This document shows, piece after piece, positions 27,201 to 33,200 of a stretch of 64,000 nt of DNA. Where the stretch lies: NCBI RefSeq assembly GCF_044324785.1, contig NZ_CP172128.1; one strand, 5' to 3'. Made by a program: the position numbers. The DNA comes from Escherichia coli (lineage in GTDB: Bacteria; Pseudomonadota; Gammaproteobacteria; Enterobacterales; Enterobacteriaceae). How positions within the stretch are numbered: the first letter of the stretch is position 1; each line of letters begins with the position of its first letter.

Positions 27201-30200
27201 GCGTCATGTTGTTCTGCGATGCCACTCTCTTCCAGGGCGAGATCCACAAGGGGCTCTGTTCCTGCACGGTACAGTCTGGGGTTGTTTTCGCCATACTCCC
27301 TGAAGGCCAGATCCACCAGGTTGCTTATGATTTGCCGGGTGTCTCCGGGATTACAGGGCTGACCGGTGCCGGTATCCACGCACAGTGCGCAGAGTACAGA
27401 TACCATGAAGTTCTTTTCCGGGGTGGCGGGTTTTTTAGCACCGTACATCACATCAAACAGGTTACGGGTGTGTTCCGGATCATTGCTCAGAATGATCCCC
27501 ACGGCTTCGTCCTTTCTCTGCTCCGGCAGGCTGTCACGGATAAGCTGTACCAGTCCCTGTGCACTGAATCCCTTGTCGATATAGGCAATGAAAGGCAGGT
27601 TCTTCTGGGCTGAGGCTATCTGGATCTCCGACAGTGCGTTGATGAGTACCGATTTGCCCAGACCGGGTGCGCCGGGCGTCAGTTCCGTGTGCTTGTTCTG
27701 TTGTGACGATGCCAGTGCGACCTCCCATGCAGAGCCGTCCTCGGTGTGCATCATCAGATTTCCCTGTCCCCGCCAGACAGAGCCGGCCCTGTTCAGGGGA
27801 AACAGGGAAAGGGCGTGTGAAAGGGGCGGGTAAAGGGGGACTGGACCGGAACCGTGGGAGGCCGCCAGAACCGTGTTCACCCAGGCACGTCTCGGATCAC
27901 CGAAGGTGGTGGTGGTGCCGCATACTCCCCAGCCTTCCAGCGCAGATTTCAGGAGCGCCTGGTTGCGGGTACAGACTTCCCGGCTGTTTCCCCATGTGGT
28001 GGCAACAATGGTCATGATACAGACCGGATCATGTTTGTTGATGTCATTCAGCATCATCACCGAGTCATACATGGGCCGGAGAGGGGAAATAAAGCTGCTG
28101 TAGGTCAGCAGGGTTTTCTTGACCCCAAGCGCCTTCATGCCGCCGGGCATCAGATCCATCCGGATACGCCAGGGGATTGCGCGGGGCACATCCCTGACCA
28201 GCTGGTTGAATGTCCGCAGATTCTGGGGGGGCAGGGTAATGGCGACCATACCGTGCCAGAGGTCACCGGCCTTTATCAGGCTGCCGTGTGTTTCAGGCTG
28301 TGTGGTGAATAACTGCAGATTCAGCGACGGTGCGTGGAATACAGAGGTATCCTCGCCCTGTCGCCAGCCGGCAGGACGGGCATCTTCAGGCAGATGAGGC
28401 TGCCATACTGCAGGTGTGCTGTTGCGCTCCAGTTGACGGCGGATTTCCCGTCCCACTTCATGAATATCCATCAGGCGAACCAGCAGACCATCAGAATCAT
28501 GTGTCAGGGCCTGCTCCAGCGTGTCCAGAAAGGCGTCATGCCGTATTTTGAGTGCGGAAAGTGTCCAGCGCCATGGATCCTGCGCAAATCGGGCTGGCGG
28601 AGCGTGTTCAGCGAGTTTCCTGATACGGGTCTGGTGGTCCTTGCGATCGGTCCGGCTCAGCAGTTCTTCAGAGCTCCAGACGGTCAGCCAGCAGCGTTCC
28701 CGGACAAGCCAGGGGGTGAGCGTGGTGACTTTTTCATCCAGAACGTCCTGAAGCAGGATCCCCGTGCGTGCGATGGATTTTCGCTGGGGTAAGAGCATGG
28801 CTTCGATTTCATCCCTTCCACGCTCCGGATCGCGTTCGAAAACAAAACTGATTTTGTGACCGGTGTTTTTATAGGCAGTGTTCATTCGCTCTGCCAGCGC
28901 TGTAATCAGTGATTCCAGTGTGCCGGGGGCTGTCAGGTCCGGGTTTTCATCCATTTCTTTCAGGGCACCGCTGATTTCAAAGACGGAAAGGTAATACCCC
29001 TGTTTTGTGGTGGCAATGTAGGGGGCTTTCAGCCAGGGGCGGCGTTCGCGGTCCTGCTGGTCCAGACCGATGACGGTGTGCAGATCACAGTAATCGGGGA
29101 AGAATGCGGAAACGGAATACCGTGACAGGGTACTGATACAGTCTTCAATGGCAAAAATAATGCGGTTGATATTCATGGCATGGGGCACTCCGGTAAGGAT
29201 GAATCATCACGGTCTTATATTTTTTGATGCCACAGCAGGGGATGTGGCATGAAAAAACAGCAGAGAAAATAAATAATCTGTTGAGGGGCAGGTGCGTATT
29301 TCTGTAAGCGTCAACGGAGCACCGTATTGACGCTTATTTATTGGTGAGTACTACGTTCCATGGCAGGAGTTCATCAACTCGGTTGGAAGGCCATTCCGGC
29401 AGTACGCTCAGGATATGGCGCAGATACGCTTCCGGAGCGATACCGTTCAGACGGCAGGTGCCGATCAGCCCGTACAACAGTGCTCCACGCTCGCCGCCGT
29501 GATCGCTGCCAAAGAACATAAAGTTTTTCTTTCCGAGACAGACTGCACGAAGCGCTCTTTCCGCAGCATTATTATCCGCCTCCGCCAGACCGTCATCACT
29601 GTAATAACAGAGGGCATCCCACTGATTCAGTACATAGCTGAACGCTTCGCCCAGTCTGGATTTTTTCGACAGCGTACCATTCTTCTCCACCATCCATTCA
29701 TGCAGCGACGTCAGTAACACTTTGCTTCGCTGCTGCCTGACGGCAAGACGCTCTGACTCCGGTAATCCCCGTATTTCATCCTCGATGGCGTACAGTTCAC
29801 TGATTCGCTTCAGGGCTTCTTCTGCCGTCGCACTTTTGCTGCTGATGTATACATCGTGGATTTTTCGCCGGGCATGGGCCCAGCACGCAACTTCTGTCAG
29901 TGCACCACCTTCACGTTCTGCACTGAACAACCTGTCGTAACCTGTGAACGCATCCGCCTGCAGGATACCCCGGAAGGGGCGGAGGTGTTGCTCCGGGTGT
30001 TTCCCCTGCCGGTTCGGCGAGTACGCGAACCAGACCGCTGGAGGAGATGACGAACCCACATTGCGATCATCCCGGACATACGTCCAGATACGCCCTGTTT
30101 TCGCCTTTTTCTGACCCGGTGCCAGTACCTTTACCGGTGTGTCATCAGTGTGAACCTTGCGGGTGTTCATTACATAACGGTACAGGGCATCATTCACCGG

Positions 30201-33200
30201 TGTCATTAACTGGCAGCACGCGTCAACCCAGTTGGAGAGTAAGGCCCGGCTCAGTTAGACACCCTGGCGGGCAAAGATTTCACTCTGACGATACAGTGGC
30301 AGATGTTCGCAGTATTTTCCCGTTAACACGCGGGCAAGTAATCCGGGGCCCGCGATACCACGCTCTATCGGGCGGGACGGCGCCGGTGCTTCAACAATAC
30401 AGTCACATTTTGTACAGGCTTTTTTTACCCGTTCTGTGCGGATCACTTTCAGGGCACTGCTCACCAGTTCCAGCTGTTCAGCGCTGACTTCCCCCAGATA
30501 ATCCAGCTCACCGCCACACTCCGGGCAACAGCTTTCTTCTGGCTCCAGGCGGTGTATTTCACGGGGAAGGTGTGCCGGTAACGGACGACGATGGCGCGAC
30601 TGTCGCAACTGGCGGGGAACCTGAGGATCGTCTTCCCGCCCACTGTAACGATCGCTGTCCTGCTCACGTTGTTTCAGCAGAGCCTCAGCCAGTTCAACTT
30701 CACGACGCAGTTTTTCAGAACGGGTACCGAACAGCATCCGGCGCAGTTTTTCTATCTGAGCCCGCAGATGTTCTATTTCCCGTTCATCTTCTTCGATCTT
30801 TTCTTCGGCACGTGTCAGTGCAGAGCGCAGGAAGGCTTCCGTCTCTTCAACCAGACTCAGTTGCTGGTCTTTCTGACGGAGGGCTTCAGCCTGCTCAGAG
30901 AGCAACCTTTCCAGCTCTGCGATGCGAATGAGGTATTTCTGACTCATGACCGTTTTTATAATGCGGTCAGGAGTTTTTTACAACATTGTCAGTGAGTTAC
31001 GGCTGGATGTTTTTGGCTGACGCCAGTCCAGCTTATCGAGGAGCATTGCCAGTTGCGAGCGGGTAATGGATACCTTGCCGTCACGTACCGCAGGCCAGAT
31101 AAACTGGCCTTCCTCCAGGCGTTTGGTGAACAGGCACAGACCATCAGCATCAGCCCAAAGAATTTTGACGGTGTCACCCCGTCGGCCACGGAAGATAAAC
31201 AGGTGACCGGAGAAGGGATTATCATTCAGCACATGTTGTACCTGTTCTCCCAGTCCGTTGAAGGATTTACGCATATCGGTAACGCCGGCAACGAGCCAGA
31301 TACGGGTACCTGATGGGAGTGAGATCATCTTCCCCTCCCGGTCAGTTCACGGATCAACACTGTGAGCAGCTCTGGCGATGGATTTTCCAGCGTCATGTTA
31401 CCGTGACGGAATTCCACCTTGCAGGAACTGGCACTGACTCTGGTCTGAGTGGAAGTGGATAAAGACGGCGCAATGGCCGCCACAGGTTCTTTCTGCTCAT
31501 CCGGCGTTATTTCTACAGGTAATAATTCAACGCCAGTGTCAGAAGAGGTCGTTACCGGAAGACGCCGCGAAACACGCCCTTCGTTCTGCCAGAGCCTGAG
31601 CCATTTGAAAATAACATTATCATTGACGCCATTTTCACGTGCAATCTGTGCAACACAAGCTCCAGGTTGTGATGCCAGTTCCACCATACGAAGTTTGAAT
31701 TCATTCGAATAGTTTTTACGAGGTTCTTTTCGCCAGTCCTGTAATTCCATACTTAGATGTCCGTCTATATCAGATGGGCGTCTAAGTTACCAATTCTCGT
31801 CTGATGGCTACATACGGCGGTCAGTTTACGCTTACGTATTTCTGTGTGATTACAGTAAATAATAAAAATGTAATAAGGTGGAAACACGCTGTCAGCGTAG
31901 TGAATTTACTGGCGGATAAGTGATTTTATTAATATGTACAACAATACATTTTCTTTTTTCATTTCGTATAAATACAGGGGGGATATAAAAGAAACGGAGA
32001 CTGCAGAGACAGAGATGCAGTTGTTTTCCCCGTTTCCTTAATGAAAATTCACTCAGGGGTGTGGCCGGATAATTATGCCGGGCGCTTAATTCCCTGTTGA
32101 ACTGAAGTATTCCGGCAATATTCAGCAGTACGCCGGCCAGCCTGCCGTCATCATCCCGCAGGAAACGACGGAGTAGCCGGTGCTCTTCTTTGGCGGTACT
32201 GTCAGTTTTTCCGGCCAGGTGTGCGTGGATGAGTGTTATAAGCGTCTCCGGGGATATGCGGTGAATTTTCATCATTCTTCTCCTGATTTTGTCGGGGGCA
32301 CACCCGGATAGATAAACTGCTGGCGGCGAATGAAAAAATCACAGAAGGGCATATCCGGTAATTCCGGGAGACCGGATACGGCAATATCCATCCATGAGAG
32401 ATAGTTATCGACGCTCACTGTGACGGTGATGCTGTTATGGGTACGGGATCTTTCATGAATTTCTGCAGCCAGAAAGAGCAGCCAGCCGCCGTTAAATGCC
32501 GGGTGGCGGAGAATGAACCGGGCAATCTCTTTTTCAACTCCATCAGGCGGAATATCGTCCGTCAGTGTCCGGATAATAAAGTGCCGGAATGCATCAGCGG
32601 TGAACTGATATGCGGCAGAGAGGGTATTCATTTTTGTTCCTCTGTAAGTTGAGAGGGCCGGCAGAACGTCATCGGTACCGGTGTGGGAGGGCTGCATCAC
32701 CAGACGAACTCCCTGTCAGGAAACGAATCCGGCAGCAGAATGAGCGCCACCCCGTCCATTTTCTCCCGCAGTGTTTTACGCTGTGCCGGCGGCCAGCGGC
32801 GCAGTGCATCAGCAAAATCCGCCGGACGCCAGGTGCGAAATTTCTCCTCAACGGCCAGGCGGTTCTGTACCAGGGCATTCAGTACGGCCCGTCCCTGTCT
32901 GACTCGCTTACGCTCATCGCTGAAAATTTCCTTCAGTGCCCGTGCATTGAGAGCAACCACCGAGGCCGGATGCAAATCAGGGAGCCAGACCATCACCCCC
33001 TGTGCGGCAGCGTAGCCGTTCAGGCAGTGCCAGGCGTGGCAGAAGGCACAGAGATGAAAGGGCGGGCCTTCCGGCTGCAGCAGTTCACTTTCATTTTCGC
33101 TGAGTGCATCTGTTGTGACGATTTGTGACTTTTCCACATGACGCAGGGCCAGTCGCCTGGCCGACAGGCGGGCCTGTGCCAGGGACCGCTCCGCATCCTG

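What the first reader, a model, noticed from the sequence alone, without database searches (positions are those of the whole stretch)
29296..31843. IS66-family element with perfect target duplication inserted 116 bp upstream of the VirB4-like gene
The insertion (8-bp repeat GTATTTCT on both sides) lies in the short gap between the stop of an upstream operon gene (31892) and the start of the VirB4-like ATPase gene (29188). It is likely polar on the downstream transfer genes unless the element supplies an outward promoter. The intact duplication says the insertion is recent, yet the transposase already carries a nonsense codon.
Basis: partly seen in the sequence, partly recalled or inferred. Interest (0 to 1): 0.4.

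Follow-up and report, generated by a model that had tools for sequence, protein, structure and literature searches.

The report
Defective ISEc23 insertion upstream of traU
This is an ordinary, already-annotated copy of the E. coli insertion sequence ISEc23, sitting in a dispensable spacer in front of the plasmid transfer gene traU, a spacer that the same element has hit independently in at least four other plasmids.

Summary
Window 29304-31835 is a 2,532-bp copy of ISEc23 (IS66 family). It has 24-nt terminal inverted repeats and a perfect 8-bp target duplication, GTATTTCT. Its genes tnpA, tnpB and tnpC lie on the minus strand, and tnpC carries a GAA>TAA nonsense codon (Glu231) at 30255-30257.

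The window is plasmid pLH10-b-1-A (NZ_CP100531.1, IncK2/Z). RefSeq already labels this copy "ISEc23 ... internal stop".

The "VirB4-like" gene is the IncI-type traU. Its real start is the ATG at 29176, so the element ends 128 bp upstream, not 116.

Three points change the interpretation:
- **Nonsense allele.** The same allele, 1 nt different, sits at another site with its own duplication in pF1022-2. Defective copies are therefore moved in trans, and "recent yet already broken" is not a paradox.
- **Tolerant spacer.** Five independent ISEc23 insertions fall within 34 bp of this spacer, four of them co-directional with traU. All IncK2 plasmids carry ISEcp1-blaCMY-2 in the same traT-traU interval and still conjugate.
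- **Polarity.** The element points the same way as the operon and has no convincing terminator. Polarity is possible but unsupported.

Ordinary, low novelty.

The parts
29296..29303 (.). Target-site duplication, traU-side copy (GTATTTCT)
   Evidence: single copy in empty-site plasmids
29304..31835 (-). ISEc23 (IS66 family), 2,532 bp, genes co-directional with the tra operon
   Evidence: 100% match to NZ_CP100531.1 and 99.8-99.9% to many copies that RefSeq labels ISEc23; Pfam domains
29304..29327 (.). Terminal inverted repeat at the tnpC end (GTAAGCGTCAACGGAGCACCGTAT)
   Evidence: inverted repeat I1
31812..31835 (.). Terminal inverted repeat at the tnpA end
   Evidence: inverted repeat I1
31325..31750 (-). 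tnpA (141 aa, HTH_Tnp_1), intact
30978..31328 (-). tnpB (116 aa, TnpB_IS66), intact
29334..30947 (-). tnpC DDE transposase pseudogene (537 codons, split 230 + 290 aa by one stop)
   Evidence: RefSeq note 'internal stop'
30255..30257 (-). Nonsense codon TAA (Glu231, GAA in intact copies)
31836..31843 (.). Target-site duplication, upstream copy (GTATTTCT)
   Evidence: traU is required for IncI1 transfer (PMC4288162)
29271..29304 (.). 34-bp zone holding five independent ISEc23 insertion points (target duplications starting at 29271, 29274, 29295, 29296, 29297)
29213..29264 (.). Conserved hairpin in the traU leader, left intact by all five insertions
   Evidence: (I2)
31892..32272 (-). Upstream small ORF (126 aa, no family hit), in a dispensable and variable segment between traT and traU

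Best explanation
A non-autonomous copy of ISEc23 (IS66 family) transposed into the non-coding spacer between a small accessory ORF and traU in the IncI-type transfer operon of the IncK2/Z plasmid pLH10-b-1-A. It made the usual 8-bp duplication.

The transposase gene tnpC carries a Glu231 stop. The same allele occurs at a second insertion site elsewhere, so it is mobilised by intact ISEc23 copies acting in trans. It need not have decayed after arriving here.

Two factors explain the location. First, ISEc23 has a weak but measurable target preference: a duplication of roughly G-N-W-N-N-W-N-S with an A/T patch about 17-20 bp outside it. The spacer offers high-scoring positions. Second, the traT-traU spacer is dispensable and tolerates insertions. 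The same 34 bp has therefore been hit independently at least five times.

The element points the same way as the operon and leaves the conserved traU leader intact (hairpin, Shine-Dalgarno, ATG). traU-trbC expression most likely continues by read-through from upstream or from a promoter in the retained leader, possibly at a reduced level.

Shown: identity, borders, duplication, nonsense codon, the shared allele, the recurrent independent hits, and the target preference. Inferred: the timing of the mutation relative to this particular insertion, and the effect on transfer.
For: - **Identity and anatomy:**
- **Uniqueness:** this exact insertion occurs only in NZ_CP100531.1 among the PLSDB plasmids and RefSeq E. 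coli genomes.
- **Shared allele:** the nonsense allele sits at a second site in pF1022-2, inside IS1414, with duplication AAACAGCG.
- **Independent hits in the same spacer:** pCP55-141k (duplication CGTATTTC), C. koseri P1 (TAATATGT on both sides), pNMBU-W12E19_01 (junction after AATAATC), and pC16EC0241-1 (opposite orientation, junction after GTATTTCTG, with an adjacent deletion). Their ISEc23 alleles and tnpC states differ and none has Glu231 stop.
- **Target preference:** 95 unique ISEc23 flanks from metagenomes give a matrix with leave-one-out AUC 0.81 (p = 7e-25). The five sites rank 15, 17, 31, 35 and 103 of 1,930 positions.
- **Tolerance of the spacer:** ISEcp1-blaCMY-2 lies between traT and traU in conjugative IncK2 plasmids (PMC5350095). 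About 200 RefSeq plasmids lack the ORF127 segment, and another lineage has an extra, opposite ORF there.
- **No strong barrier to read-through:**
Against: - No transfer or transcript data exist for this plasmid, so the functional consequence is untested.
- No sigma-70-like promoter was detected in the 127 nt left between the element and traU.
- The direction of descent between this copy and the pF1022-2 copy is unresolved. This copy has the ancestral base at the one differing position, so the mutation could have arisen here.
- The target matrix is weak. Equal or better-scoring positions in the spacer (31880-31887) and higher-scoring ones inside the dispensable ORF127 (e.g. 31923) are unoccupied.
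- The orientation ratio of 4:1 is not significant (one-sided p about 0.19).
Confidence: 0.8

Rival explanations
1. In-situ decay. An intact ISEc23 inserted here and then acquired the Glu231 stop. The pF1022-2 copy descends from this one.
For: The window copy carries the ancestral base at the single position that differs from pF1022-2. This exact insertion is seen in only one record.
Against: No intact copy with this allele's two other diagnostic bases was seen at this site.
Confidence: 0.3
2. Polar, possibly adaptive knock-down. The insertion uncouples traU-trbC from the upstream tra promoter, lowering or abolishing conjugation. Repeated hits in this gap are selected because they reduce the cost of transfer.
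For: traU and the downstream genes are required for IncI1 transfer (PMC4288162). No promoter-like site lies between the element and traU. About 920 nt of tnpC after the nonsense codon may go untranslated, which classically favours Rho termination. There are five parallel insertions.
Against: The element is co-directional with only one weak terminator-like site. The RNA after the stop is G-rich rather than C-rich, and in-frame restart codons follow within 50 nt. IncK2 plasmids with 4.2 kb inserted in the same traT-traU interval gave transconjugants (PMC5350095). The clustering is explained at least in part by target preference.
Confidence: 0.2
3. Structure-directed targeting. ISEc23 is drawn to the conserved 15-bp-stem hairpin in the traU leader.
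For: All five insertions lie 7-40 bp from the hairpin at 29213-29264.
Against: The 80-nt flanks of 95 unrelated ISEc23 sites fold no better than control DNA from the same contigs (mean -7.0 vs -7.8 kcal/mol; Mann-Whitney p = 0.10, in the wrong direction).
Confidence: 0.05
4. Chance repeat or assembly artefact rather than a true insertion.
For: None.
Against: The empty site is rebuilt exactly in hundreds of plasmids. The element is complete with its inverted repeats. The record is a closed plasmid sequence.
Confidence: 0.01

Closest known systems
ISEc23 (IS66 family; ISfinder name as used by NCBI PGAP)
   Same: Length 2,532 bp, tnpA-tnpB-tnpC order, GTAAGCG termini, 8-bp duplication. 99.8-99.9% nucleotide identity to many copies labelled ISEc23 in E. 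coli chromosomes and plasmids.
   Different: Carries a Glu231 stop in tnpC. The only other listed copy with at most one mismatch is the pF1022-2 copy, which shares the stop, so this copy is non-autonomous.
ISEcp1-blaCMY-2-blc-sugE insertion between traT and traU of IncK2 plasmids (Seiffert et al. 2017, PMC5350095)
   Same: A mobile element inserted in the same traT-traU interval of the same plasmid lineage, co-directional with the tra genes, upstream of an intact traU leader.
   Different: A different element (IS1380 family transposition unit, 4.2 kb). It lies about 0.7 kb further upstream, inside the ORF142 homologue. It is inherited by the whole IncK2 lineage, whereas the ISEc23 insertion is private to one plasmid.
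IS66 / IS679 prototype elements (Machida 1984; Han et al. 2001, J Bacteriol 183:4296; cited from my own knowledge and via PMC6778807)
   Same: Three-gene organisation and 8-bp target duplication.
   Different: Only distantly related in sequence. No target preference has been described for them as far as I know; a weak one is measured here for ISEc23.

Membership tests
IS66 family insertion sequence | Three consecutive genes tnpA (HTH), tnpB (IS66 Orf2) and tnpC (DDE transposase) | tested here: met
   ORFs 31750-31325, 31328-30978 and 30947-29334, with Pfam HTH_Tnp_1 (E = 5e-12), TnpB_IS66 (1e-36) and DDE_Tnp_IS66 (7e-75) plus zf-IS66, LZ_Tnp_IS66 and DDE_Tnp_IS66_C
IS66 family insertion sequence | Terminal inverted repeats of about 20-30 bp beginning GTAAGCG | tested here: met
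   24-nt repeats, 20/24 complementary, both starting GTAAGCG. That GTAAGCG is the family hallmark is from my own knowledge.
IS66 family insertion sequence | 8-bp target-site duplication | tested here: met
   GTATTTCT on both sides. 8 bp is the value reported for IS66 (PMC6778807).
ISEc23 (named element) | At least 95% nucleotide identity to the reference ISEc23 | tested here: met
   99.8-99.9% over the full 2,532 bp to many copies that RefSeq/PGAP names ISEc23. The ISfinder reference itself was not available, so this is a test by proxy.
Autonomous (self-mobilising) IS | Uninterrupted transposase reading frame | tested here: not met
   TAA at codon 231 of tnpC, where intact copies have GAA. RefSeq notes 'internal stop'.
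IncI-type TraU (DotO/IcmB-like transfer NTPase) | Position in the traT-traU-traV-traW-traX-traY gene order, about 1,014 aa, with a P-loop | tested here: met
   Gene order from the RefSeq annotation; 1,014 aa; Walker A GAPGLGKS at residue 502; leader and start conserved with IncI1 pESBL traU
VirB4 family ATPase | Significant match to VirB4/CagE/TrbE profiles or to solved VirB4 structures | tested here: not met
   No Pfam hit at E <= 1e-3, no NCBIfam hit at E <= 0.01 and no PDB sequence hit at E <= 0.01. A fold-level relationship via DotO is known from the literature but was not tested here.

The most novel reading that the evidence does not exclude
The spacer in front of traU in I-complex plasmids (IncI/K/B/O/Z) is a genuine ISEc23 hot spot. 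Co-directional insertions there persist because they retune expression of the traU-trbC half of the type IVB transfer system rather than destroy it. That would be a recurrent, IS-mediated route by which these resistance plasmids adjust conjugation rate or cost.
Probability: 0.2. Interest if true: 0.4.

Novelty: already known. Interest (0 to 1): 0.18.

Why it matters
For the plasmid, the question is whether a poultry-derived 169-kb IncK2/Z plasmid can still transfer. traU is essential for IncI-type conjugation.

More generally, the case shows three things:
- An intact target duplication next to a broken transposase does not date an insertion, because defective ISEc23 copies move in trans.
- ISEc23 has a measurable, previously unremarked (to my knowledge) weak target preference.
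- The traT-traU spacer of I-complex plasmids is a repeatedly used landing pad for mobile DNA, including the blaCMY-2 unit that defines IncK2.

None of this changes current understanding of IS66 elements or of conjugation.

Tried and rejected
- **Hairpin-directed targeting.** Flanks of 95 ISEc23 sites fold no better than controls. Rejected.
- **Hybrid outward promoter.** The tnpC-end tip carries TTGACG 5 nt from the end (minus strand of 29309-29314), but no acceptable -10 follows in this flank or in the flanks of the other insertions (read by eye; one search lists none). Rejected.
- **Internal promoter-like site facing traU** (29596-29568, 9 of 12 matches). The scan found 6 promoter-like sites where shuffles give 2.8 +/- 1.6, which is not clearly above chance, so this single 9-of-12 match is not used as evidence.
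- **Rho-utilisation signal after the nonsense codon.** C/G ratios are mostly below 1. No support.
- **Rfam on the whole window and on the pCP55-141k insert.** Nothing in or next to the element.
- **Family and structure searches for TraU, ORF126, ORF141 and TraT.** No hits.
- **Literature.** Nothing on strain LH10-b-1. The only paper naming pCP55-141k gives no transfer data for it. Han et al. 2001 is not held.
- **Similarity between the target region and the ISEc23 ends (IR-targeting).** Only about 6 of 12 matches by eye. Not pursued.
- **BLAST alignments running 7-18 nt past the element end into flanks of other copies.** Two were read (L009, L010). They are best explained by ranking bias among about 15,000 places, so an unbiased metagenome sample was used instead.
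Full report
**What is there**

The window is E. coli LH10-b-1 plasmid pLH10-b-1-A (NZ_CP100531.1, 169,272 bp, IncK2/Z, MPF_I, pooled poultry faeces, Switzerland), record positions 99618-163617.

At 29304-31835 lies a 2,532-bp element:
- **Ends.** They read GTAAGCG... and ...CGCTTAC and form 24-nt inverted repeats, 83% complementary.
- **Duplication.** The octamer GTATTTCT sits directly outside both ends, at 29296-29303 and 31836-31843.
- **Genes, all on the minus strand.** tnpA is 31750-31325 (141 aa, HTH_Tnp_1). tnpB is 31328-30978 (116 aa, TnpB_IS66). tnpC is 30947-29334 and carries the zf-IS66, LZ_Tnp_IS66, DDE_Tnp_IS66 and DDE_Tnp_IS66_C domains.
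- **Stop codon.** tnpC is cut by an in-frame TAA at 30257-30255.

The element is 99.8-99.9% identical over its full length to many copies that RefSeq names "IS66-like element ISEc23". RefSeq already annotates this copy as "internal stop". ISEc23-like sequence is found in 4,771 of 5,426 complete E. coli genomes, with a median of 3 places per genome.

**Is the insertion real?**

With the ends fixed by the inverted repeats, an 8/8 match of the flanks has a chance of about 1.5e-5. Deleting 29304-31843 recreates a continuous sequence with one GTATTTCT. That sequence occurs full-length in 224 PLSDB plasmids (best 99.3%: pTB-nb2 and NZ_MG825371.1). A 679-bp version occurs full-length in 122 RefSeq E. 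coli plasmid records. I read the single copy directly in pDV45, pTB-nb2 and pBOKZ_020007. The occupied site was found only in NZ_CP100531.1 itself. The insertion is real and private to this plasmid.

**The neighbouring genes**

The downstream gene is IncI-type traU, in the order traT - two small ORFs - traU - traV - traW - traX - traY - excA.
- The ORF finder's GTG at 29188 overlaps the Shine-Dalgarno GGAG.
- RefSeq, and the alignment with IncI1 pESBL, place the start at the ATG at 29176, giving 1,014 aa. The element therefore ends 128 bp from the start codon.
- TraU has a Walker A motif, GAPGLGKS. It has no Pfam, NCBIfam or PDB sequence hit.
- "VirB4-like" thus rests on the literature equivalence TraU = DotO/IcmB (my own knowledge), not on a test made here.
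- traU is required for IncI1 transfer (PMC4288162).

**The nonsense codon**

Intact ISEc23 copies (for example in pEC129_1) have GAA (Glu231) where this copy has TAA. The only other listed copy with at most one mismatch, in pF1022-2 (NZ_OY754359.1, France), differs at a single base and has the same TAA. It lies inside an IS1414 remnant and is flanked by its own 8-bp duplication, AAACAGCG. The corresponding IS1414 position in the window (10940-10947) is unoccupied.

Two sites sharing one nonsense allele, each with an intact duplication, mean that at least one transposition followed the mutation. The defective element is therefore moved by transposase from other copies. Which copy is older cannot be told. 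The window copy has the ancestral base at the one differing position.

**A recurrent target**

Searching with the junctions turned up four more plasmids with ISEc23 in the same spacer:

| Plasmid | Type | Orientation relative to traU | Junction or duplication | tnpC state |
|---|---|---|---|---|
| pCP55-141k | IncK2/Z, China | co-directional | CGTATTTC, 1 bp off; flanks a 4.7-kb unit made of 2.17 kb of foreign DNA plus a complete ISEc23 | frameshifted |
| C. koseri P1 | IncI1/B/O, Spain | co-directional | TAATATGT on both sides | cut by ISEc45 |
| pNMBU-W12E19_01 | Norway | co-directional | junction after AATAATC | intact |
| pC16EC0241-1 | IncK2/Z | opposite | junction after GTATTTCTG, with an adjacent deletion reaching into traT-proximal DNA | intact |

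Identity to the window copy ranges from 96.3% to 99.8%. None of these copies has Glu231 stop. These are therefore five independent events within window 29271-29304, four of them co-directional with traU.

About 450 PLSDB plasmids carry this region, and ISEc23-positive plasmids hold about 1.4 places each. From these figures, five hits in 34 bp of an assumed plasmid size of about 90 kb is an enrichment of at least about 25-fold. This is a rough inference, not a formal test.

**Why here?**

1. *Target preference.* An exact-match scan for the tnpC-end tip returned 120 metagenome stretches and 95 distinct flanks. They show a weak pattern. The duplication favours G at position 1, A/T at positions 3 and 6, and C/G at position 8. 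There is also an A/T patch 17-20 bp outside the duplication. A matrix built from these flanks separates true sites from neighbouring DNA with a leave-one-out AUC of 0.81 (p = 7e-25). Used symmetrically on the 2-kb empty site, it ranks the five observed positions 15, 17, 31, 35 and 103 of 1,930.
2. *Tolerance.* The traT-traU interval is variable.
   - All IncK2 plasmids carry the 4,198-bp ISEcp1-blaCMY-2-blc-sugE unit there and still gave transconjugants (PMC5350095). In pDV45 the unit sits inside the ORF142 homologue, co-directional with the tra genes.
   - About 200 RefSeq plasmids lose homology 11 bp beyond the duplication, because the ORF127 segment is deleted.
   - Another lineage has an extra, opposite ORF there.
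3. *Hairpin targeting is not supported.* ISEc23 flanks in general fold no better than control DNA.

All five insertions spare the traU leader. That leader contains a hairpin (29213-29264) whose stem is conserved in IncI1 pESBL while the loop differs.

**Effect on transfer**

The element's genes run toward traU.
- The terminator scan finds only one weak site on that strand, inside tnpB (31183-31167), and none at the tnpC end.
- The RNA after the nonsense codon is not C-rich, and in-frame restart codons follow within 50 nt.
- No promoter-like site lies in the 127 nt retained upstream of traU. The tip's outward TTGACG finds no -10 in the flank (read by eye).

The sequence is therefore compatible with read-through expression. 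It neither proves it nor excludes partial polarity. No publication on this strain was found.

**Verdict**

This is a correctly observed, ordinary insertion of a known insertion sequence that the public record already annotates. The added value is modest:
- the nonsense allele is trans-mobilised;
- the spacer is a repeatedly used, tolerant landing site that matches a weak ISEc23 target preference;
- the predicted polarity is unproven and, on comparative grounds, probably not complete.

Noticed in passing
window 29213-29264: Long hairpin (T6-GATGCCACA / TGTGGCATG-A6, 8-nt loop) in the traU leader. The stem is conserved and the loop changed in IncI1 pESBL, directly after the traT stop. An A-run follows the stem on both strands, so it is not an intrinsic terminator. 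Its function is unknown (operator, RNA processing or stability site?).
   Followed up: partly
window 31892-32697 (two ORFs of 126 and 141 aa): Two small ORFs between traT and traU have no Pfam or NCBIfam hit. IncI1 lacks them. About 200 RefSeq E. coli plasmids have them deleted or decayed, with the break at GTGTGATTACA| (window 31854). In IncK2 plasmids the ORF142 homologue is the insertion site of ISEcp1-blaCMY-2.
   Followed up: partly
L002 (pCP55-141k) 3504-8214: The duplication CGTATTTC flanks a 4.7-kb unit. It is made of a 2.17-kb segment that begins GTAAGCGG... (a ~330-bp sequence with about 11,000 places on E. coli plasmids, then an integrase fragment and an MFS transporter gene), followed by a complete ISEc23. 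It looks as if ISEc23 mobilised adjacent DNA by using a surrogate IS66-like end.
   Followed up: partly
window 6366-6523 (-): An Rfam STAXI RNA match (70 bits; gathering score 40.5) lies inside the tnpA gene of a second IS66-family element, ISCro1 (window 4297-6912).
   Followed up: no
window 9918-11126: An IS1414 copy with an internal stop. The sister nonsense ISEc23 copy in pF1022-2 is inserted in IS1414 at the position equivalent to window 10940-10947, which is empty here.
   Followed up: partly
window 19473-19779 and 20193-20500: Two tandem hok/sok-type toxin-antitoxin loci (Rfam sok, 123 and 120 bits) next to excA. Also an AgrB antisense RNA hit at 16194-16283, near trbA.
   Followed up: no
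window 38814-42875 (-): A 1,353-aa 'LPD7 domain-containing protein' occupies the position where IncI1 plasmids carry the Sog primase, between the traK-like gene and the traL/traM-like genes.
   Followed up: no
metagenome loci L011-L130 (ISEc23 tnpC-end flanks): ISEc23 shows a weak target consensus (duplication about G-N-W-N-N-W-N-S, with an A/T patch at -27 to -24 from the element end). To my knowledge this has not been described for this element.
   Followed up: yes
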